From the human T2T-CHM13v2.0 reference genome, Homo sapiens, in the NCBI RefSeq assembly GCF_009914755.1, contig NC_060944.1: a stretch of DNA of 64,000 bases, one strand, 5' to 3'. Under the pieces are notes generated by a model. The model was not told the DNA's origin. It ran no database searches and was given only the letters and a program-made list of their open reading frames with translations. This document shows, one piece after another, positions 30,423 through 64,000 of this stretch; positions within the stretch are counted from its first letter, which is position 1, and each line of letters starts with the position of its first letter. A program made the position numbers and the translations under genes.

Positions 30423-34314
<3,892 letters not shown>

Positions 34315-39882: not shown

Positions 39883-42800
39883 TGTGTTCGTCTGTTTTTG
39901 TTGCCATTAAGGAATGCCTGAGACTGGGTAATTTATAAAGAAAGAAGTTTAATTGGCTCACAGTTCTGCAGGCTGTAGAGGAAGCACAGCAGCATCTGCT
40001 CCTGGTGAAGGCCTCAGGAATCCTACAATCATGGTAGAAAGCAAAGGGGGAGCCAGGGTATCATATGGTGAGAGTGGGAGTAAGAGAGAAGGGAGCAGGG
40101 GGGCTGGAGGTGTCATACTCTTTTATTATTTTATATTTTTTTCAGCAATAATGTTGATTTACTATCACTTTATGCACCAGATCTGTGAAAACACACAACC
40201 TATGTTCTATGCTCTCCAGAAAAGGACAAGCATCATGAGGATCATATAAAACATGTACAATCAAAATACAATTTCATGATTGACTATACCATTGGAAACA
40301 CATATGACAATACCAGTTGGTGATATCACTGAGATCACTAGAGCCAGGTGAGATAATCTACATAAGTTTCTCCATAGAATTAAATTTTGAGGGCGATTTG
40401 CTGGGATTGAAGATAAACAGAAACTGAGGAAGAATTTCAGGCAATTACCTGGTCCAGCCCCCAACAAGTGCAAATAAAGACCTGGCTCTCAAGGAAAATC
40501 AATACATCAGTTCCCTCTTAGATGTCAAAATCAGAATCTCCAAATGCACTGATTTAATAAAACAGGTTTTATCAACCTAATGATCAATATGTTCTCACAT
40601 ATTCGTAAAATCGCCTTTAAGTCCTTTTTAACTTTTGTGGTACTCTGAAGATGTGAGAAGCTAATTAGTATCATTTTCATAAAATCTAATACATAAGATA
40701 GGAGGCTTATATAGTGAGTGACAGTCAGTGTTGTGTCACCTAATGGCCAAAAATAACCCAAATCATTGAACCTTTTATCACATATCCTGTTTTGATCCTG
40801 ATAATCATTTTTAAAAATTGAAATCAGCTTTATTTAAGAATTTCCAGCATTGACAACTCTTATAAAAAGCATCCAAGCACAGGGCACAGAACTGTAGCAA
40901 ACAGCATTCTTACGGGTAGCTAACAGACATTAGAACTTCCACCCTTCTTTGAGACACCTGAACTCACTGTGAACTCTGCTTCCAAGTACTCCTTCAAAGC
41001 ATACCACAAGCTCAGTTTATATTCTCAACTCATCAGCTTCAGTTCACATTACCACACTTATGTATCAGTAACAGAAGAGAACACACACCATACAGCATTC
41101 ACAGCAGTTGACAAAAGGGTAGGAAAATACAAGTATCGTTTCACTTAACACATTCAACTAATGTAGGTTGCCTAAGAACAAAGCTCACTGAAAGTCTTCC
41201 AACACATGTGGATGTCCTTTGAATACAAAAGACATTCATACATTGTTTATTATTGTTGTCTGTATACTCTCTCACCAAAATTACAGGATTGAGAGACACA
41301 TCTCAACAAGTTAAAAAATATTCATGATGCACCATCAACTCTCTACCTGCACTCTCTCCTTCTCTCACTCATACTAGCCTTCCATGCCTTGGCAGCACCA
41401 CCAATTCCACACAAAGTTTCAAAAGTTCAGACAGCCTCTGGTTCCATATCACAGCCTTGTGTTCATGACGTTGATAAGACTCCATGAAATAAAGCATAGT
41501 GAATCAAAATGGGAACACCCACTGTCAAAGATGCAGCCTGTGAAGTGTGATGACGAATTCTTGAATGAGAAAGCATGTAGACAGAAGTATTTCTATGGCA
41601 GGATATTTACAGCGCTACTTTCAATGAAGTGCTTCTGTAAACATTTGAAATGAGATGCACTGCAGAGATTAAATGAAGGCTTCATATCGTACTTTTCTAT
41701 ATCAGGTGGGTGGAGTGACAAGTGTTAAAAAACAAAACAAAAGAATCAAACACTGTGACACCATGATCTCCCAAAAGGAGATTTTATTAAGGAAAAAAAA
41801 TCATATGGTGGGGTTCAAATGAAGACAAGGAGAAAAGAATGTAGTTCTCATCAATGTTTTCCATTTTGAGCACGCAAAGAGTTCACTTGAGAAGTCCAGG
41901 GATAAAATATTACAGATATCAATTGTAATGTGTTGATTTTCCAACAGACAAACAGCCATTTGCTTTTAACCACTCAATATTTCAACTCTTTATTTATTCA
42001 ACTCTTTGTGTAACTCAACTCTTAATGTATTCAACTCTTCATGTAACTCTACGTCACAAAACTTATACAATTCCTTTATCTCTTCCTCTTTTTCTAAAGA
42101 AAAATGTCAAAAATACTGCTGAATATACTCCACACTGAACAAACCAATTTTGAAAAGTTTTGTATCTTACCATGTACATTCCGTACCAACAAACCATAAC
42201 CCAAAGTCTACATTTCCCAGCCAGAAGATTGAGAATCCATGCTTGAGCCAGAGCCTCCATTAAAACCATTGCCTGATGCTGATTCCCAACCAATTGCTGC
42301 ACCAGAATTAGAACCACTGTAAGAGTTATTTCTAGAACCAAAGACCTGGTTTGGCTCCCTTTGCATGTTGCCTTGACTTTGGTTATTACCTGATGGGCCT
42401 GACTGGTTCTGCTGGCTGGCTAACATGCTCATCCTACCCCAACTGCTCTGCAGCGCTGCCTGGGCTGCAGCCATCATGGCTGGATTAATGCTGAGCACAC
42501 CAAAATTCATCTACCACCTATATTGGTACCTCGATTGTTTTCCAAGCCAGATCCACCCCTCTACTGTTACCAAATCCACTCAGATTCCCAAATCTTCCAC
42601 TTCTTTCTATCTATTGCTGTCGTGTGATTAGGTTTGGCACTGGATATATGCATGCTGAGTCCTTTAATGATCAAGTCCTCTCCACAAAGAGATTGGGCAA
42701 TCTGATCAACTGCAAATGTAACAAAGGCAAAGGCCCTGAATGGCTTGGGGATGAAGACATCCACCACTTCTTTGTACTGACAGAAAAACTGCCATAGCTC

Positions 42801-44253
42801 ATCTGCAGTCATGTCCTCTGTACAGCGCCCCACAAACACTTCTCTGCTTCTCAAAGGCTCATCTGGGCTTTGCTTAGAGTTGGGAAATTTACAGTCATAC
42901 CATCATCCATCTATCATATGTCACTGTGACATTACTTTCACGTGTCTTTCATACTCCATAAAATGAACAAAGCCAAACCCTTTTGACCAGTTTTAATATC
43001 TATCTTGACTTGGACTTCTCCAGAGGTACTAAAATATTCTTTCAGATCCTGTTTCCATAGGAGGAAAAACAAACTGAGAGCAAAAACTCACTAATTACCA
43101 ACGCTATTAAATAAGATATTTTCTGGACTGCTCTTCACTTTCACTGCCATCTCACCCATTTTTCTTTTGTTATCTTTGGGACAGTTGACAACATATACCA
43201 GATTTCCACAGTCAGCATCAGGGCATGCAGAATTCCTTCTACCAGCTGGATACCTCTCATACACTGAGACACTGGATTCTTGTAGTGAAGTCCACATGCC
43301 CCTGGAAACTGGGCTGTAACTGTGGACAGCAGCACCACCCCATTGTCTTCTGATGATATTTCAACGAGCTCCTTATTCTCAACTTCACTTACCCTAGTGT
43401 ATTCAGACATCTTTTATTTCTCTACTTAGGCCACTGCTAGAAAGCCCAACAGGGACACTGAAGCAGTGACAGATCCAAGCACAGCTTAGTTTATTCTCCT
43501 TGATAATCATTTTTATTGTTCTTCCTGGGACTCATTCAAGACTTTCTAGAATTCATATTAACTCATGGCCAAACATGAAAATAAGTTGTAACAAGGGGGT
43601 ACGTAATGTAGAACATTTGGAAGAGCTGTCTCTTTGTTCTTGCCAGCCACGTTCCTTTGGATGTTTAGCTTGTTAGCAGTGATCATCATGGCCAATTACT
43701 TGATCTGCATCATCATCCTACATAAGCAATTGTTATGTCTTCAGTGATGACCTGAGAGGAAAATACACTCCAATGGCATGGTAAATGCCCTTTCTGCAGG
43801 AGGGACAAGTAAGAAAGACTCAGGATGCTGCAATTCAGGAGGCTGAGCTCTAACCCTTAGCCCCTAAACCCACTGTCTATGAGAAGCCATGCTGAAATTT
43901 AGACAGCAGCACATCACAGACCTGCACAGGCATTGAGCTGGCAGGGCATTGCTCAATGATGGTAGGTGCAGTGTTTACAGAAGTGTGTAATGTGAAGTGC
44001 TAGTGCACAAGGGCCCTATGGTTAAATGTGTTTGAAAAATGCTGCATACTATATCCATTGGCCACACTTTTAAACAACCAGATCTTGCACAAACTCAGAG
44101 CACAAACTCACTAATTACTGTGAGGATGGCACCAAACCATTCATGAGGGATCAGTCGTCATGACACACACATCTCCCATCAGGCCTCACCTCCAGCACTG
44201 GGGATTACATTTCAACATGAGATTTGGAGGGAACAAATGTCCAAACCATGGCA
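39883..44253 (-). mobile_element. MST (MaLR) LTR split into 39883-40124 and 44061-44253 by the TARDBP insert
   Basis: TG…CA termini; 5-bp TSD ctttg at 39878-39882 and 44254-44258; the two halves join at gccacactttt|aaacaaccagatc. Confidence 0.85.
40125..43487 (-). pseudogene. TARDBPP1: TARDBP (TDP-43) processed pseudogene; CDS remnant 43410 to 42208, 3'UTR ~2.1 kb, degenerate poly(A)
   Basis: MSEYTRV…[14 protein letters not shown] (N-terminal domain), [11 protein letters not shown]…RAFAFVTF (RRM2), [18 protein letters not shown]…SSGWEM*; intronless with frameshifts. Parent gene is clear; the P1 symbol is from recalled locus context. Confidence 0.93.
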
Positions 44254-52913: not shown

Positions 52914-55900
52914 CTAAATAGAATTAAAAACGAAAACTATATGATCATCTCAATAGATACAGAACAAGCATTAGATAAAATCCAACATCCCTTTATGATA
53001 AAAATCCTTAACAAACTAGGAATTGAAGTAACATACCTCAGAATAATAAGAGCCATCTGTGACAAGCCCACAGCCAATATTATACTGAACAGGCAAAAGC
53101 TGGAAGCATTTCCCCTAAGAACAGAAACAAGATAAGGATGTCCATTCTCACTGCTTCTATTCAGCACAGTACTGGAAGTCCTAACCAGAGCGACCAGATA
53201 AGAGATAGAAATAAAAGGCATCCAAATAGGAGAAGCAGAAGTCAAATTATGTCTCTTACCTGATGATATAATTCTATACCTAGAATACTCTAAAGATTCT
53301 GCCAAAAGACTCCTAGACCTGATAAACAACTTCAGGAAAGTATCAGGATACAAAATCAACATACAAAAATCAGTAGCATTTCTATACACCAATAATGCTC
53401 ACGCTAAGAACCAAATCAAGGGCTCAGTCCCATTTAGGATAACCACTAAAAGAATAAAATTTCTAGGAATGCATCTAGCCAAGGAGGTAAAAATTTCTAC
53501 AAGGATAACTATAAAACATTGCTGAAGGAAATCACAGATGATAGAAACAAATGGAAAAACATTTCATGCTTATGGATTGGAAGATTGACATTGTTAAAAT
53601 GGCCATATTGCCTAAAGCAATTCTACATATTTAATGTTATTTTAATCAAATTACCAATATTATTTTTCACAGAATTTGGAAAAACTATTCTAAAATTCAT
53701 ATGGAACCAAAAAAGAGCCCAAATAGCCAAAGCAATCCTTAGCAAAAAGAATAAAGCTGGAAGCATCACCTCGGCTGACTTCAAACTATACTATAAGGCT
53801 ACAGTAACCAAAACAGAATGGTACTGGTACAAAACAGACACATAGACCAATGGAACAGAAGAGAGAACCCAGAAATAAAGCTACAGACCTACAACCAACT
53901 GACCTTTGACAAAGTTGACAAAATTAAAAAATAGGGAAAAGAGGACTCCCTATTCAATAAATGGTGCTGAGATAGCTGGCTGGCCATATGCAGAAGAATG
54001 AAACTGGATCCCTACCTCTTACCGGATATAAAAATGAACTCAAGATGGATTAAAGACTTACATGTAAGACTTAAAACTATAAAAATCCTAGACAAAAGCC
54101 TTCGAAATACTCTTCTAGACATTGGCCTAGGCAAAGAATTTATGACCAAGTCTTCACGAGCAATCACAACAAAAACAAAAATTGATCCCTCCGCAGCCGC
54201 TGCCGGAGCGGAAGGGCGGGGTCTTGTGCCTCCCCCACCCCCAACCCAATGGGTGAGGAGCGAGGAAGGCAGCGCGGCGTGGGGGCGGAGCCCGCGGGTG
54301 CGCATCCTGAGGCCTAGGCTACGTGGTCACGTCAGCGCGGGAGAGAGAGAGAGAGGAGCTGACTCAGCAGGGACTGGGGTACTGGGTCGAGAGTGCGAGC
54401 AAGCGAGCCAGAAGGGGAAAGGCGGCTGCTCGTGCCTGAGCTACCGCAGAGGGGAGTGGGAACAGTGGGGTAAAGGGGGGGGGGGCGGGAATAAGAAAGG
54501 CCGAGAGAAGGCAGACAGAGGGTGGTGGTGGTGGGGGTGGTGGTGGGGGTGGTGGGGGTGGTGGTAGGGGGAGAGGGAGAGGGAGGAGCTGGAGGAGGTT
54601 AGAAGGAGGAGCTGGAGGAGGCTAGAAGGAGGAGCTGGAGGAGGTTAGGGGCTGAGGGAGTGAGTGAGTGAAGCGGACGCGAGGGAGGGGAGGGAAGGGA
54701 AAGGAAAGGGGGGGATCACGCAGGGGCGCGCGCAAGCACCGGGAGCGCGCTCGGAGACGAGTGGAACTGGATCGGGTTTGCTGTCAGCGGCGTGAGCTTC
54801 GGCCGCCATTTTACAACAGCTCCACTCGCGCCAGACACAGGGAGCAGCGAGCACGCCTTTCTTGCAACCTGGTACCATCGGACAGGATTCCTCCCCCTCA
54901 GTCCAACGGGGAGATCTTTGGAAACATGGCTACAGAACATGTTAATGGAAATGATACTGAAGAGCCCATGGATACTACTTCTGCAGTTATCCATTCAGAA
55001 CATTTTCAGACATTGCTTGATGCTGGTTTATCACAGAAAGTTGCTGAAAAACTAGATGAAATTTACGTTGCAGGGCTAGTTGCACATAGTCATTTAGATG
55101 AAAGAGCTATTGAAGCTTTAAAAGAATTCAATGAAGACGGTGCATTGGCAGTTCTTCAACAGTTAAAGACAGTGATCTCTCTCGTGTTCAGAACAAAAGT
55201 GCCTTTTTATGTGGAGTCATGAAACCTTATAGGCAGAGAGAAAAACAAGGGACCAAAGTAGCAGATTCTAGTAAAGGACCAGATGAGGCAAAAATTAAGG
55301 CACTCTTGGAAAGAGCAGGCTACACACTTGATGTGACCACTGGACAGAGGAAATATGGAGGACCACCTCCAGATTCCGTTTATTCAGGTCAGCAGCCTTC
55401 TGTTGGCACTGAGATATTTGTGGGAAAGATCCCAAGAGATCTATTTGAGGATGAACTTGTTCCATTATTTGAGAAAGCTGGTCCTATATGGGATCTTCGT
55501 CTAATGATGGATCCACTCACTGGTCTCAATAGAGGTTATGTGTTTGTCACTTTTTGTACAAAAGCAGCTCGGGAGGCTGTTAAAACTGTATAATAATCAT
55601 GAAATTCGTTCTGGAAAACACATTGGTGTCTGCATCTCAGTTGCCAACAATAGGCTTTTTGTGGGCTCTATTCCTAAGAGTTAAAACCAAGGAACAGATT
55701 CTTGAAGAATTTAGCAAAAGTAACAGAGGGTCTTACAGACGTCATTTTATACCACCAACCGGATGACAAGAAAAAAAACAGGCTTTTGCTTTCTTGAATA
55801 TGAAGATCACAAAACAGCTGCCCAGGCAAGGCGTAGGTTAATGAGTGGTAAAGTCAAGGTCTGGGGGAATGTTGGAACTGTTGAATGGGCTGATCCTATG

Positions 55901-57925
55901 GAAGATCCTGATCCTGAGGTTATGGCAAAGGTAAAAGTGCTGTTTGTACGCAACCTTGCCAATACTGTAACGGAAGAGATTTTAGAAAAGGCATTTAGTC
56001 AGTTTGGGAAACTGGAATGAGTGAAGAAGTTAAAAGATTATCCATTCATTCATTTTGGTGAGTGAGATGGTGCTGTCAAGGCTATGGAAGAAATGAATGG
56101 TAAAGACTTGGAGGGAGAAAATATTGAAATTGTTTTTGCCAAGCCACCAAATCAGAAAAGGAAAGAAAAAAGCTCAGAGGCAAGCAGCAAAAAATCAAAT
56201 GTATGACGATTACTACTATTATGGTCCACCTTATATGCCCCCTGCAACAAGAGATGGAGGGCGAGGAGGTAGAGGTGGTTATGGATATCCTCCAGATTAT
56301 TATGGATATGAAGATTATTATGATTATTATGGTTATGATTACCATAACTATCGTGGTGGATATGAAGATCCATACTATGGTTATGAAGATTTTCAAGTTG
56401 GAGCTAGAGAAGGGGTGGTAGAGGAGCAAGGGGTGCTGCTCCATCCAGAGGTCGTGGGGCTGCTCTTCCCCGTGGTAGAGCCGGTTATTCACAGAGAGGA
56501 GGACCTGGATCAGCAAGAGGCGTTCGAGGTGCGAGAGGAGGTGCCCAACAACAAAGAGGCCGCGGGCAGGGAAAAGGGGTCGAGGCTGGTCCTGACCTGT
56601 TACAATGAAGACTGACTTGGTATGTGGGATTACACCAGAAGCTTGCAATGGAGTAATGGTAAGGAAATCAAGCAACCTTAAATATCTCGGCTGTATAGGA
56701 GCATATTCTATTGCAGAAGACCTTCCTGTGAAGATCATGGAATCAAATACGGGACATTAAACTAATACTTGGACTTTGATATGAATTTCTTTAACAATTT
56801 TCTCTGCAGTGCAAGTTATTAAACTAAAGCTACTCTATTTTCAAAATGTGTTCCAACAGAAATCCTTCATAACTCCTAGCATGGTATCTTAATAAAGAAT
56901 AAAGTTCTTTAAAAAAAAATTGGTAAGTGGGACCAAATTAAGAGCTTCTGCACAGCAAAAGAAATTATCAACAGAATAAGCAGAAAACCTGCAGAATGGC
57001 AGAAAAATTTGCAAACTATGCATCTGACAAAAGACTATTACCCAGAATTTATAAGTAACTTAAATAAAGCAACAAGAAAAAAAAACTGCATTAGAAAGTA
57101 GGCAAAAGACATGAAGAGACACTTCTCAAAAGAAGATATATAAGCAGCCAATTAACATAAAAATTCAACCTCACTAATCATCAGAGAAATGCAAATCAAA
57201 ACCACAATGAGATAACCATCTCACACTAGTTAGAATGGCTGTTATTAAAAAGTCACAAAATAACAGATGTTGGTGAGGTTGCAGAGAAAAAGGACCACTC
57301 ATACACTGTTGGTGGGATTGTAAATTAGTTCAGCCTCTGTGGAAAGCAGTTTGGGGATTTCTCAAAGAGCTAAAAATAGAATTACAATTTGACCCAGCAA
57401 ACCCATTACTTGGGTATATACTCAAAGGAAAATATATTATTCTACCAAAAAGTCACTTGAACTTGCATGTTTATTGCAGCACTATTCACCATAGCAGAGA
57501 CATGGAATTAACCTAGGTGCCCATCAATGATTGATTGGAAAAACAAAATGTAGTACATATATACCATATAATACTATGTAGCCATAAAAAAAAAAACCAA
57601 ATCACGTCTTTCGCAGCAACATGGATGCAGCTGGAAGCCATTGTGCTGTACAAATACAGAAACGGAGAGCCAAATAATATATGTTCTCACTTATAAGTGG
57701 GAGCTAAACATTGGATACTCATGAACATAAAAATGGGAATAATAGACACTTGTGACTTTAAAAGGAGAGGAAGAGAAGAGGGAGGCAGGGTTTGAAAAGC
57801 TACATATTGTTTACTATGTTCATTGTCTGGACGATGGGTTTGACTGAAGCCCAAACTTCAGCATCATGCAATATATCCATATAACAAACCTGCACTTATA
57901 CCCCCTGAATTTAAAAAAAAAAAAG
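52914..57925 (+). mobile_element. L1PA16/L1PB-like 5'-truncated LINE-1, split by the SYNCRIP retrocopy
   Basis: Decayed ORF2 translations at 52941-54185; ORF2 resumes at ~56925 (aagtgggacc…); 3'UTR and poly(A) at ~57913. Confidence 0.85.
54187..56914 (+). pseudogene. SYNCRIP: SYNCRIP (hnRNP Q1 isoform) processed pseudogene; CDS remnant 54926-56608
   Basis: MATEHVNGNDTEEPMDT…, three RRMs, Y/RGG region, C-terminus QGKGVEAGPDLLQ*; frameshifts and stops; AATAAA at 56891 and 56898 followed by A tail; TSD aaaaattg(a/g)t at 54177-54186 and 56915-56924. The symbol is that of the parent gene. Confidence 0.95.
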
Positions 57926-59445: not shown

Positions 59446-59870
59446 TGAAAGGGCTGTACAGTCAAAGTGATCTACAAATGCTGAAGGTGCCAAGAAACCA
59501 TAGAACAAGGCAGACAAGTCCAGTTTATCAGTAAAAGTTGATTTATTGGGGGAACTCACAGACAGAAGCATGGTCTTGGGCCACTGCAACACAGGTAGAT
59601 CTCCACATCTGTTACTCCCAGACCTAAGACTTATGTACTATGAGAAAAAGGTGTACATGCTCTAGCAAGGCAATTAAAGGTAACCCCTAGAACAGACAAG
59701 AATACTGTGTGCGTCATAGTCTATAATTTGTGTGCTAACATCAAGATGACATGTTCTTATACTAAGGACAGTAAATAAAGTGGGAATCAGGAGACATTCA
59801 CAGGACTGGGGCTAATCAGAAGTCAACGTGGTGGATTAGCACCCATGATGGAACCAATTTTGTCTCCACA
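59446..59870 (-). mobile_element. ERV solo LTR (subfamily not determined)
   Basis: TG…CA termini; 4-bp TSD tctg at 59442-59445 and 59871-59874; minus-strand AATAAA. Confidence 0.7.
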
Positions 59871-60094
59871 TCTGCTAAATAAATTTATTAATAAGAAAAG
59901 GAGGGGGAGCAAGTGGAACAAAGGACTTGAGGGTGGAAGGTGGTGAAAAAGAGAAGAAAAAAGTGCAAAGGTGGTGAAAATGTTGGAAAATCAACAGGTT
60001 CAAGGTCTCAGCAGGTTTCATGGATTGTTCTAGTTGGGGGTACTACAGAGGTGAGCTGGAAAGATAGGAGATGGTGGATGAAAGTGGGATGCTT

Positions 60095-60198
60095 ATTAGT
60101 GGGTGCAGCGCACCAGCATGGCACATGTATACATATGTAACTAACCTGCACAATGTGCACATGTACCCTAAAACTTAGAGTATAATAAAAAAAAAAAA
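60095..60198 (+). mobile_element. L1HS (Ta-like) extreme 3' fragment
   Basis: attagtgggtgcagcgcacc…aaacttaGagtataat plus poly(A). G at 60178 and A before ttagt match the recalled Ta diagnostics. Confidence 0.75.
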
Positions 60199-60543
60199 GG
60201 TTAATTGAAAACTAGATGTTTTTCTATCTCTATGCTAATACAGATGTTTTAAATTATTCCAGTTGTTTAATAACTCTTAGAAACTTTAATGATAAGTCCC
60301 TTTCTTTTTCTTCAAATTGTCTAGGCTACTCTTGTCTTTTGATCCTCCTGAAGAAATTTTACATTCATCTTGCCAAATACCTTGAAAAACACTGTTAGAA
60401 GAGCTTACAGAGGGCTGGCATGCACATGGCAACTTTGTGCAGGCTGTAAGAGGCTTCTGGCCACTTGTTGGTCAGCCAGATATCCAACTTTGGTCACAAG
60501 TGATGCCACAGTGTCTCAAGGAGATGTACTATCACAAATACTG

Positions 60544-60675
60544 GGTTTGTGCTCTGCACTAACATATGATACAAATATTGATGAAAATAATACTGTTGCC
60601 TTCCTGAACAGGAAATTAATTTTATCACTGGATACAGACACTTATGAAGAAAGTGGACTTCAAGGTTGTCCATTT
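60544..60675 (+). pseudogene. RPP40: RPP40 (RNase P/MRP p40) coding fragment
   Basis: GLCSALTYDTNIDENNTVAFLNRKLILSLDTDTYEESGLQGCP versus recalled RPP40 GSCYALTYNTHIDEDNTVALLPNGKLILSLDKDTYEETGLQGHP. The symbol is that of the parent gene. Confidence 0.8.
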
Positions 60676-60834
60676 AAAGAAGAGCTGACACCAATGTTTA
60701 CAGTTGTTGACAAGCTTGTAGGACTCATACAGGACTGTTCACAAGGCCAACCAGAGAGAGACCCTGCAGAAGACCCTGGGCCAGAACTGGGAGGAACATG
60801 TCTCTTTAGTGACTTGGATGGAAGCCAGAATTAT

Positions 60835-60873
60835 GTATATATATAGAGAGAGTGACAGGGAGGGAGGGAAGGG

Positions 60874-60960
<87 letters not shown>
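60835..60960. repeat. Compound (TA)/(GA)/(GT)/(GA) microsatellite
   Basis: Directly visible. Confidence 0.95.
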
Positions 60961-60989
60961 GTTCTGAGAGAGGCCAACATAGAAATGGC

Positions 60990-61470
60990 CCTGGATATCA
61001 GGTAGCATGGACCCTTTGTTTTGAGAGGCCCCAGCTAAATTGGGGCTCCAGTATCAGAGTGGCAAGCAGCCACTGGGCATGGGTGTCCACACGTGCTTTG
61101 CGTCGGATACTTCTTTTACCTGGTGGATGGCCTAATTCCTAGTTGTCTGGACTGTGACCAAGGCGTCCTTCACGTGGGAAACTTATTTATACTGACTGAT
61201 GCCTATAGCTTTTGCTGACCTGTGTCCAGTTTATGCCTACCTAACCATTGCTCTGGCCTGGGAGCCTGCCCTTATATTCTCCTCAGCATCCCAGGGAAAA
61301 CCAGGCCTGAGTAGCCCCTAGTTCTTCAGAGGGAAGGTACAAATTCAATATAACATCACAATAGGAAATAAATTGAAAGATTTACAAGCCCTGAGCAGGG
61401 AGGGCACCTTTGGAAGCCCTTTATCATCAGGTCATATGAGGCTGGAATGAAGAGTCAGGCAGAGAGAGAG
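60990..61470. mobile_element. Probable old ERVL-type LTR fragment (MER54/MER73/MER74-like)
   Basis: Resemblance from memory only (aataggaaataaattgaaagattt; ggaatgaagagtcaggcagagagag). Confidence 0.4.
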
Positions 61471-61537
61471 ACACACACACACACACACACTGACAGACAC
61501 ACACACCAAGGGGCTACATGGAGCCTCAGCTTCCTAG

Positions 61538-61972
61538 AGACCCCTTACTGGACTCCTGGACTTGGCCTCAGTGGATGGCCAAGAAGCTGCTGGCTGTACC
61601 GGCCACCCAACATTTTTGCATTCACTGCCTGGCCACTGACAACTCTACTCCCTGGTCTCCTGGTTGAGGAGCTTTGAGGAGTTCCATGGAAAGCATCACA
61701 TTGGGCATCAAGCTGTGACACCAGCAGTGGAGCCTGGTCATGGAGAGTGTGGTTCCCTTGGACAGTGACCATTCCACCTGCACGGTGGAGAACAAGTTTT
61801 ATAGCATCCAGCAGATGTATATGCTGTACCTGATGGAGACTGCCAGCCATCCAGAGGGTGGTACTGGACAGTGAGGTAGAGTTTCATTTCAAGGTGTACT
61901 GAGACTTAGCATGTAGAGATGAAAGGCAGCAAGGTGGGCTCTGAAGGCACACGCTACCTCACAGTGCTCAAG
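61538..61972 (+). pseudogene. FGFR3P3: FGFR3 fragment (Ig-II to Ig-IIIa), intronless and disabled
   Basis: PYWT…MAKKLLAVPA…[40 protein letters not shown]…[10 protein letters not shown]…HVEMKGSKVGSEGTRYLTVLK; stop at 61716-61718. Not on the ORF track. The P3 symbol is from recalled locus context. Confidence 0.88.
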
Positions 61973-62184
61973 TAGCATGTGGCAAACTTGTGGGGTTTGG
62001 GGCAACTCCAGGAGGAAGGCATTATTTCTTGTTCTGATAAGTGGTGGTCAGGTCCAGTTTGCACTCATGAAAGTTCAGTCTTTGGGATGTGCAGTTCCAT
62101 GGGTCTGAACCAATGTGCTGTGGCTACTTCACTACTTCAGCACCTCAGGTAGCAGCTTCTTCATCCTCAAGGTCACCAGTGTTT

Positions 62185-62490
62185 CTCCTTTGTTGTCAAA
62201 CTCTCTCCACTCTGTCAGCCCCTGGAAACCACTGATTTTTTCTTAGTCCCTATGGTTTAGCCTTTTTCAGGATGGCCTATGAATTGGAACCATGCAGTGG
62301 GTAGTTTTTGGGTCTGGCTTCTTTCACTTAGCAAAATGCAGCTAAGCTTCATTTATATTACTGTAGGTTCAATGGTGTCTTCCCTTTTATCACAGTTGTT
62401 TATGGGTGTACCACCATTTCTTTATTCATTCCCTTGTTGAAGATCATCTTGGTTGCTTCCAAAGTTTAGTGATTATGAATAAAGCAGTGA
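62185..62490 (-). mobile_element. Old L1MC-like 3' fragment inside the mosaic retrocopy
   Basis: ccctggaaaccactg…ctggcttctttcacttagc…gattatgaataaagc. Confidence 0.65.
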
Positions 62491-63061
62491 ATGTGGCCTG
62501 AAAAAAAAAAGGAAGAAAAACACTGTTAGCAATTTTGTTTGGGATTATATACTAATTTGGAGGAGAACTAACTTCTTTTTGATATTGTCTTCCCATCCAA
62601 GGTAATCCGTTTAATTTAGGTCACTGTCTCCAGCTTTTGATTACATTTGTTAGTTTTCCTCATTAAGGACTTTCGTGTCTTTTATTCAACTTTTTTATTT
62701 CTAAATATTTAGATGTTTTTTGTTGCTACTGTGCTTTGTATTTTTTCCCTGATTAAATGTTCTAAGGATTTTTTTTTCTGATGTTTAAAGGGACTTTTAA
62801 TTTCTGCATATTTACCTTTGTCCAGCAACTTTGCTGAACTTAAAAGCTTTTAATAGTTTGGATATTTTCGTGTGTTTTATGTTTAGGCAATCATGTGATA
62901 CGATTTTACTTCTTATATCTTTTATTTCTTTTGTCATCTTAATTTATTATACAACTCAGAAATCTAGACCAATGTTGAATTGAAGCAATGATAGCAGAAA
63001 TCCTTTCTTTTCCCCCTATTAAAGTAATGCATCAATCTATTCCAATTAAGAATGATTTCTT

Positions 63062-64000
<939 letters not shown>

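What the first reader, a model, noticed from the sequence alone, without database searches (positions are those of the whole stretch)
60384..62529. 2.1-kb mosaic retrocopy joining RPP40, LTR, FGFR3 and antisense L1 pieces inside one TSD
Seen: an exact 15-bp direct repeat gaaaaacactgttag (60384-60398, 62515-62529) brackets the segment. AATAAA (62478) precedes an A-run (62501) at canonical spacing, and the old L1M on either side reads on when the insert is removed. Inside, the RPP40-like coding piece and the intronless FGFR3 piece are on the same strand as the poly(A), alongside an LTR-like piece and an antisense L1 that donates the poly(A) signal. Known: TSD plus poly(A) is the signature of L1 target-primed reverse transcription. 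Inference: this is not a retrocopy of FGFR3 mRNA but of a separate chimeric source transcript assembled from pieces of two unrelated genes. That source could also explain other partial FGFR3 and RPP40 pseudogenes, making this a small family of exon-shuffled retro-cassettes.
Basis: partly seen in the sequence, partly recalled or inferred. Interest (0 to 1): 0.85.

Follow-up and report, generated by a model that had tools for sequence, protein, structure and literature searches.

The report
Multi-template mosaic retrocopy on chr20
A 2.1-kb insertion made by the L1 copying machinery stitches together pieces from at least three unrelated sources, one of them a stretch lying only 84 kb away; it is a rare variant of a known kind of "chimeric retrocopy", not a new class.

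Summary
An exact 15-bp target-site duplication brackets window 60399-62514. AATAAA lies 17 nt before an A10 tail, and the flanks are one old antisense L1 that reads straight through once the insert is removed.

- RPP40 5'UTR plus exons 1, 3 and 4.
- Part of an MSANTD5-like exon 2.
- Microsatellites.
- 455 nt of an LTR with about 40 nt of its unique flank. These were copied from chr20:6,176,106, 84 kb upstream.
- FGFR3 intron-4 tail plus exons 5-7.
- Two antisense-L1 "exons" joined at exact GT..AG sites, which supply the poly(A) signal.

The FGFR3 piece shares a 23-nt exon-7 deletion with 5 of 5 other FGFR3 pseudogenes examined. It therefore came from a transcribed pseudogene lineage, not from FGFR3 mRNA. 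The RPP40 piece belongs to a family of RPP40::MSANTD5-like fusion retrocopies at four other loci.

No other locus carries both RPP40 and FGFR3 pieces, so there is no RPP40-FGFR3 cassette family.

Best reading: a single L1 integration, roughly 35-55 Myr ago, of a cDNA assembled from at least three templates. The joining was probably template switching at purine-rich microhomology. This is a new variant of known chimeric retrogenes and of moderate interest.

The parts
60384..60398 (+). left copy of the 15-bp target-site duplication; native sequence of the host antisense L1
60399..60544 (+). RPP40 5'UTR (from 27 nt before the ATG homologue at 60426) plus exon 1
   Evidence: Matches chr6:4872864-4872989. 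The gene's exon 1 encodes residues 1-41 of PDB 6AHR chain L. Aligned with other retrocopies.
60545..60673 (+). RPP40 exon 3 (60545-60610) and exon 4 (60611-60673), spliced. Coding exon 2 is absent and the last ~30 nt of exon 4 are missing.
60674..60809 (+). 3' part of an MSANTD5-like exon 2 (Myb/SANT-like), ending at that exon's donor site
60810..60835 (+). about 26 nt of unassigned sequence
   Evidence: No significant match to MSANTD5 exon 3: score 10 against shuffles 8.9 +/- 1.3.
60836..60962 (.). compound microsatellite (TA)n(GA)n(GT)n(GA)n at a junction
60966..61005 (+). about 40 nt of non-LTR flank shared only with chr20:6176106 (L002)
   Evidence: of 30 other loci scored, only L002 reaches query positions below 46. 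Also.
61006..61470 (+). first ~455 nt of a ~650-750-nt LTR-type repeat, cut in the element's own GA-rich tract; sister of L002
61455..61509 (.). (GA)n(CA)n microsatellite at the next junction
61510..61537 (+). probable tail of FGFR3 intron 4, in its pseudogene-family form
   Evidence: Weak against the gene: score 14 against a shuffle maximum of 12.5. Clearer in the family alignment, where it shares an ~11-nt gap with the chr11 and chr19 copies.
61538..61972 (+). FGFR3 exons 5 (to 61712), 6 (61713-61836) and 7 (61837/61840-61972). Introns 5 and 6 are removed, about 30 nt of the exon 7 start is missing, the 23-nt family deletion is present, and the piece ends at the exon 7 donor.
61973..62056 (+). 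antisense-L1 'exon A'
62057..62500 (+). antisense-L1 'exon B' (antisense to the ORF2 3' end), with AATAAA at 62478-62483
62501..62514 (+). poly(A) tail A10 followed by GGAA
   Evidence: L1 relatives read on here
62515..62529 (+). right copy of the target-site duplication

Best explanation
This is one L1-mediated (target-primed reverse transcription) integration into an old antisense L1. It dates to roughly 35-55 Myr ago. The cDNA was built from at least three separate templates.

- Template 1 (3' end): a polyadenylated RNA from a transcribed FGFR3 pseudogene copy. It retained the intron 4 tail and had introns 5 and 6 spliced out. After exon 7 it ran into two antisense-L1 exons, which supplied AATAAA.
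- Template 2: RNA, or DNA, of an LTR locus 84 kb upstream on the same strand.
- Template 3: an RPP40::MSANTD5-like fusion RNA, copied back into its 5'UTR.

The joins lie in purine-rich tracts that have since grown into microsatellites. The most likely joining mechanism is template switching by the L1 reverse transcriptase.

Shown: the TSD, tail and poly(A) signal; the interrupted host L1; intron removal; the family relationship of each piece; and the local origin of the LTR piece. Inferred: that all pieces arrived in one event, the switching mechanism, and the date.
For: TSD, poly(A) signal and tail are present. The target on the bottom strand reads TTTTTC/AA, which resembles the L1 endonuclease consensus (recalled). 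The host L1 is continuous across the empty site.

There is only one tail and no internal A-run or second TSD. All pieces have the same polarity.

RNA origin:
- RPP40 exons 1-3-4 and FGFR3 exons 5-6-7 are joined.
- A ~515-nt stretch present in L1 relatives is missing in ours, exactly between CAG|GTGACA and T-run-(C/T)AG|TTTGCAC. The donor is seen in 4 of 4 independent loci and the acceptor in 5 of 5.

Separate sources:
- The FGFR3 piece shares the 23-nt exon-7 deletion in 6 of 6 family copies, ours included. Intron content varies among them.
- The RPP40 piece abuts MSANTD5-like sequence, as it does at chr1, chr12, chrX and chr9.
- The LTR piece is 80.3% identical to L002, against 68-73% to 11 other copies. 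It alone shares L002's ~40-nt flank. Private changes are symmetric at 8.2% and 8.6%.
- L002 has no RPP40 or FGFR3 sequence within about 1.5 kb.

Both ends of the L002-derived segment fall in GA-rich sequence that is native to L002.

Double template jumps giving tripartite chimeras are described in print (PMC2104539, abstract read).
Against: Two junctions fall at exon ends: the MSANTD5-like exon 2 donor and the FGFR3 exon 7 donor. Splicing predicts this; random template switching does not.

For the exon 7|L1 junction, none of the L1 relatives aligned across it has an AG acceptor at the matching place: 0 of 6 loci, which are 4 independent copies. Neither mechanism is therefore verified there.

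No extant human locus shows an FGFR3P copy followed by this L1, so template 1 is inferred. AATAAA is absent at the matching site in 5 of 5 L1 relatives.

The microsatellites hide the exact breakpoints. The date rests on the LTR piece alone. At 8.4% divergence a perfect 15+15-nt TSD has a probability of only about 0.07 by my arithmetic. No orthologous empty site could be examined.
Confidence: 0.6

Rival explanations
1. First reader's model. A single source locus produced one read-through, cis-spliced chimeric transcript holding all the pieces in this order, and that transcript was retrocopied once.
For: There is one TSD and one tail. Two junctions lie at exon donor sites. The antisense L1 is spliced. 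The insert starts in the RPP40 5'UTR, as expected of a transcript driven from that end.
Against: No such locus exists in this genome. All 17 RPP40-piece candidates and all 30 FGFR3-piece candidates were scored, and none holds both pieces.

The LTR piece with its unique flank comes from chr20:6176106. There the LTR continues ~280 nt past our breakpoint, and the neighbours hold neither gene piece. L002 shows no AG immediately before the 5' edge of the copied stretch, so that edge is not a splice acceptor junction; a GTGAGC lies within the GA-rich 3' edge, whose exact breakpoint cannot be placed. The FGFR3 piece begins inside intron 4, not at an exon edge.
Confidence: 0.12
2. Stepwise assembly at this site. 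A first retrocopy created the TSD. Later events added the rest: a second retrocopy landing in its A-tail, and/or a DNA-templated repair patch (gene conversion or replication template switch) copied from the LTR locus 84 kb away.
For: The source of the LTR piece lies in cis, on the same strand and only 84 kb away. The chance that a random source lies this close is about 5e-5 by my arithmetic, which fits DNA-level repair. GA-rich microhomology is present at both edges. The purine-rich microsatellite at 60836-60962 could be a decayed A-tail.
Against: The only tail sits 17 nt after the antisense-L1 AATAAA. The RPP40::MSANTD5-like part stops at the exon 2 end, with no 3'UTR or signal of its own, unlike the chr12 copy. 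The FGFR3 part has no 5' TSD of its own. Even under this model the second insertion would still be a chimera.
Confidence: 0.2
3. This is not an insertion. The 15-mer pair is a chance repeat inside a rearranged region.
For: None beyond the low complexity of the A-rich 15-mer.
Against: Expected matches are 0.02, and 0 of 100 shuffles gave 2 or more. The repeat sits exactly after an A-tail. The flanks join into one L1.
Confidence: 0.02

Closest known systems
Chimeric retrogenes formed by LINE reverse-transcriptase template switching, bipartite and rare tripartite (Gogvadze, Buzdin et al., PMC2104539; abstract read)
   Same: Copies of different transcripts are fused head to tail in one polarity. 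There is one poly(A) at the 3' end, and one pair of direct repeats flanks the whole. More than one jump is needed.
   Different: No sense L1, Alu, U6 or other small-RNA partner is present. The 3' part is a spliced pseudogene/antisense-L1 transcript. One part comes from a locus 84 kb away in cis. Two joins coincide with exon ends. That abstract says the two human tripartite elements reported earlier lacked such direct repeats, whereas this one has a perfect 15-bp pair.
Ordinary L1-mediated processed pseudogene
   Same: TSD, AATAAA plus A-tail, removed introns, and insertion at an A-rich L1-endonuclease-like site.
   Different: It is not a copy of one mRNA. The gene pieces descend from already dead, re-transcribed copies (the FGFR3P lineage and the RPP40::MSANTD5-like fusion), and an LTR fragment lies between them.
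L1 chimeric insertions with mRNAs and lncRNAs through 5' transduction or proposed trans-splicing (Law and Burns preprint, 10.1101/2025.02.02.635956; abstract and outline read)
   Same: mRNA fragments arrive together with a retro-insertion. Splice-type junctions raise the question of trans-splicing.
   Different: Those chimeras have a sense L1 as the 3' partner. Here the only L1 sequence is antisense and exonised.
Antisense L1 acting as splice acceptor and poly(A) site in host transcripts
   Same: Antisense L1 sequence supplies exons and the poly(A) signal that ends the transcript.
   Different: Here the result is fossilised as a retrocopy. The AATAAA is not present in the 5 related L1 copies checked.

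Membership tests
L1-mediated retrocopy (TPRT product) | Target-site duplication of about 7-20 bp flanking the whole insert | tested here: met
   15 of 15 identical; 0.02 expected by chance
L1-mediated retrocopy (TPRT product) | 3' poly(A) tail preceded by a poly(A) signal at 10-30 nt | tested here: met
   AATAAA at 62478-62483 and A10 from 62501. Relatives read on at the tail position.
L1-mediated retrocopy (TPRT product) | Introns removed relative to the parental genes | tested here: met
   RPP40 exons 1-3-4 and FGFR3 exons 5-6-7 are joined. The antisense-L1 GT..AG intron is gone.
L1-mediated retrocopy (TPRT product) | Empty site with one copy of the duplicated target | tested here: inconclusive
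   Paralogous L1 copies show continuity across the junction. Orthologous sites in other species could not be examined with these tools.
Template-switch chimeric retrogene | Two or more unrelated transcript copies in the same polarity inside one TSD, with one tail | tested here: met
   At least three sources with separate relatives; single tail and TSD
Template-switch chimeric retrogene | Joins made by the reverse transcriptase, not by splicing | tested here: inconclusive
   The LTR piece is bounded by GA-rich microhomology, and the FGFR3 piece starts inside intron 4. However, two other joins sit at exon donor ends.
Direct processed pseudogene of FGFR3 mRNA | Derived from mature FGFR3 mRNA | tested here: not met
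   It shares the 23-nt exon-7 deletion with 5 of 5 other FGFR3P copies, retains an intron-4 tail, and stops at exon 7.
Solo LTR insertion | Complete LTR with its own short TSD | tested here: not met
   Only the first ~455 of ~650-750 nt are present. It carries ~40 nt of another locus's flank.

The most novel reading that the evidence does not exclude
The insert would be a four-part fossil of L1 integration. It would record that the integration complex sampled a template from its own chromosomal neighbourhood, 84 kb away in cis. It would also record two otherwise lost RNA species. One is a spliced RPP40::MSANTD5-like fusion transcript that seeded at least five retrocopies. The other is a retro-competent FGFR3 pseudogene lineage that was transcribed, differently spliced and re-copied over several generations.
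Probability: 0.3. Interest if true: 0.6.

Novelty: new variant of a known kind. Interest (0 to 1): 0.45.

Why it matters
Chimeric retrocopies are one route by which exons are shuffled. Multi-part examples with an intact TSD are rare in the human genome.

This one dates itself through a sister sequence 84 kb away, and so gives a concrete case for asking whether L1 integration can borrow local templates. It also shows that the annotated 'FGFR3P3' is not a simple FGFR3 pseudogene. FGFR3P and RPP40-like pseudogenes are families descended from dead but transcribed copies, which matters for pseudogene dating and annotation.

No function is implied.

Tried and rejected
- Earlier findings were not open.
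- A genome search with the right flank gave only 3 candidates. Continuity was therefore shown with L1 copies already held.
- Pfam found nothing in 10 frames of an L1 relative. Antisense-L1 identity was shown instead against the window's own ORF2-bearing L1.
- Window 60796-60872 against MSANTD5 exon 3, and against the chr12 copy, was not above shuffles. I therefore do not claim that the MSANTD5-like part continues into exon 3.
- The intron-4 tail against the FGFR3 gene alone was weak.
- I looked for RPP40, FGFR3 or L1 pieces around L002 and found only the LTR match.
- I checked whether the LTR's extra 5' stretch is part of the repeat. It is not: 29 of 30 other loci start at or after the LTR terminus.
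- A literature search for FGFR3P names found 49 papers holding at least 1 of 6 terms. Of the 15 listed (listing only), most were mouse Fgfr3 P244R or P250R alleles, and none was on the origin of these pseudogenes.

Full report
**Observation**

The 15-mer GAAAAACACTGTTAG occurs exactly at 60384-60398 and 62515-62529 and nowhere else in the window, even with one mismatch allowed. Chance expectation is 0.02, and 0 of 100 shuffles gave 2 or more matches. It is the only exact 15-nt pair among 13 direct-repeat families in 59500-63500. AATAAA lies at 62478-62483, A10 at 62501-62510, then GGAA and the right repeat.

I aligned left flank, one repeat copy and right flank to two independent L1-type copies. 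Both alignments run through the junction without a break. L043 gives 187 of 271 identical columns and score 39 against a shuffle maximum of 33.5. L076 gives 169 of 238 and score 46.5 against 38. The host is therefore one old repeat that was interrupted. By recall of L1 sequence it is the antisense of the ORF2 region.

The bottom strand at the left edge reads TTTTTC/AA, close to the L1 endonuclease preference (recalled).

**Anatomy, 5' to 3'**

(a) 60399-60673 is RPP40. It starts 27 nt before the ATG homologue and matches three exons of the gene on chr6. The gene's first matching exon encodes residues 1-41 of RNase P p40 (PDB 6AHR chain L), and its last matching exon starts at residue 114. By position the middle exon would encode residues ~91-113; this was not searched. 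The coding exon for residues 42 to about 90 is therefore skipped. It is skipped in 7 of 7 RPP40 retrocopies that hold both neighbouring exons.

(b) 60674-60809 is the 3' part of an MSANTD5-like exon 2.
- A related 197-aa frame on chr3 hits Pfam Myb_DNA-bind_4 at E 1.3e-5. The score of 25.9 is just under the 27-bit cut-off.
- That frame is 77% identical to a protein named MSANTD5 of Homo sapiens by its source.
- The intron-bearing copy on chr5 (L048) shows GT..AG-bounded exons. Our piece ends at its exon 2 donor.

(c) About 26 nt are unassigned, followed by a (TA)(GA)(GT)(GA) microsatellite.

(d) 60966-61470 is about 40 nt of unique sequence plus the first ~455 nt of an LTR-type repeat. Copies of that repeat are ~650-750 nt long.

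(e) A (GA)(CA) microsatellite follows.

(f) 61510-61972 is a probable tail of FGFR3 intron 4 followed by exons 5, 6 and 7. Introns 5 and 6 are absent, and the piece ends at the exon 7 donor.

(g) 61973-62500 is two blocks of antisense L1. Block B matches the minus strand of window 33856-34075, at the 3' end of an ORF2 frame (31387-33990) that carries the RT domain; the endonuclease domain lies in the adjoining frame 30423-31394. In L1 relatives about 515 nt separate the two blocks. The missing stretch begins with GT after CAG and ends with a T-run plus (C/T)AG. The donor is seen in 4 of 4 independent loci and the acceptor in 5 of 5. This is the signature of a removed intron.

**Where each piece came from**

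*FGFR3.* Six of six aligned family copies share a 23-nt deletion in exon 7 that the gene lacks. The six are ours, chr16, chr11, chr3, chr19 and chr1q44.
- They differ in intron content. Intron 5 is kept in chr16, chr19 and chr1 and lost in ours, chr11 and chr3. Intron 6 is lost only in ours.
- chr11 and chr19 share a further 33-nt deletion, although only chr19 keeps intron 5.
- A dead FGFR3 copy was therefore transcribed, variably spliced and re-copied more than once. Ours is one such product, not a copy of FGFR3 mRNA.
- Exon identities to the gene are 73-77% for all six copies.
- Three other copies (chr16, chr11, chr3) continue past exon 7 into ~50 nt of intron 7. They then run into ~350-600 nt (depending on the pair) of sequence found only alongside this family. 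Ours leaves at the exon 7 donor.

*RPP40.* RPP40 exons abut MSANTD5-like sequence at four other loci.
- At chr1:244.148M and chrX:51.775M, the end of exon 4 is joined to the start of MSANTD5-like exon 2, with the same junction in both.
- The same parts lie 91 nt apart at chr9:88.447M. This rests on search coordinates only.
- At chr12:11.438M, exon 1 is joined to the later part of exon 2, then to the exon 3 end and an A-tail, inside its own TSD.
- In the shared block ours is 77% identical to chr1 and 75% to chr12, against 64% to the MSANTD5 gene copy (L048) and 68% to its chr3 retrocopy (L040). The three share several states against the gene.
- Relative to chr1, ours lacks about 99 nt across the junction.

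*LTR.* Ours is 80.3% identical to chr20:6176106 (L002), which lies 84.3 kb upstream on the same strand. It is 68-73% identical to 11 other copies.
- Of 30 other loci scored, only L002 extends into the ~40 nt before the LTR terminus.
- Using each of the 11 copies as outgroup, private changes average 8.2% in ours and 8.6% in L002.
- L002's LTR continues ~280 nt beyond our breakpoint. Its surroundings hold no RPP40, FGFR3 or matching L1 sequence.
- Both edges of the copied stretch lie in GA-rich sequence native to L002.

**Is there a cassette family?**

No. With all candidates scored (17 of 17 and 30 of 30), no locus but this one holds both an RPP40 and an FGFR3 piece. The whole insert has no second copy. 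The best other match is L002, for the LTR part only; 40 of 865 candidates were scored.

**Mechanism**

One TSD, one tail, a common polarity and several removed introns show an RNA-derived insert placed by L1. The pieces have separate relatives, and the LTR piece has an identifiable donor locus with different neighbours. A read-through transcript of one locus is therefore unlikely.

I favour a single integration in which reverse transcription proceeded as follows:
1. It began on a polyadenylated FGFR3P/antisense-L1 RNA and stopped inside intron 4.
2. It moved to the L002 template at a GA-rich tract.
3. It moved again to an RPP40::MSANTD5-like RNA and ran into its 5'UTR.

Double jumps of this kind are in print (PMC2104539, abstract). 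L1 chimeras with mRNAs, including a trans-splicing proposal, are described in a 2025 preprint (abstract and outline). A term search in that preprint found only a reference-list hit.

Points against this reading:
- Two joins sit at exon donor ends.
- The AG expected for splicing of exon 7 into the L1 is absent in all 4 relatives.
- The source of template 1 is not found in this genome.
- AATAAA is missing at the matching site in 5 of 5 L1 relatives.
- The cis position of L002 would also fit a later DNA-templated patch.

**Date**

About 8.4% private divergence corresponds to roughly 35-55 Myr, using neutral rates that I recall and that come from no call. A perfect 30-nt TSD pair then has a probability of about 0.07. 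This is tolerable and argues that integration is not much older than the LTR copying.

**Verdict**

The finding is real and richer than described, but it belongs to a known kind.

Noticed in passing
L033 (chr1:244148225-244149030), L039 (chrX:51774910-51775135), chr9:88446856-88447104, L043 (chr12:11437844-11437988): A family of RPP40::MSANTD5-like fusion retrocopies. Junctions lie at exact exon ends: RPP40 exon 4 to MSANTD5-like exon 2 start at chr1 and chrX, and RPP40 exon 1 to later exon 2 at chr12. RPP40 is on chr6 and the intron-bearing MSANTD5 copy on chr5, so a lost fusion gene or trans-splicing is implied.
   Followed up: partly
L065 (chr16:38.896M), L051 (chr11:95.764M), L053 (chr3:180.503M), L078 (chr19:22.767M), L079 (chr1:246.552M): FGFR3 pseudogenes form one lineage marked by a 23-nt exon-7 deletion, but with different introns kept or lost. 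The chr16, chr11 and chr3 copies were seen to share ~350-600 nt of non-FGFR3 sequence (by pair) after ~50 nt of intron 7. That sequence was found only alongside this family (19 candidates, all scored).
   Followed up: partly
L032, L034, L035, L036, L041, L046 and window 60399-60673: All 7 RPP40 retrocopies that hold exon 1 and exon 3 lack coding exon 2 (residues 42 to about 90), which breaks the frame. This points to a common exon-skipped source RNA or a master copy.
   Followed up: partly
window 30423-33990 (+): L1 ORF2 with an 867-aa open frame (RVT_1, E 8.6e-48), preceded by a 323-aa frame with the endonuclease domain. It is a fairly young L1 in the same window.
   Followed up: partly
window ~60090-60200 (+): A sequence that looks like the 3' end of a young primate L1 with an A-tail (recalled likeness, not tested). 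It lies ~190 bp upstream of the insert, nested in the same old L1.
   Followed up: no
window 40817-43485, 54824-56566, 61557-61972: According to the hub's gene table, three annotated processed pseudogenes (TARDBPP1, SYNCRIPP1, FGFR3P3) lie within 22 kb. This is a locally dense cluster of retrocopies.
   Followed up: no
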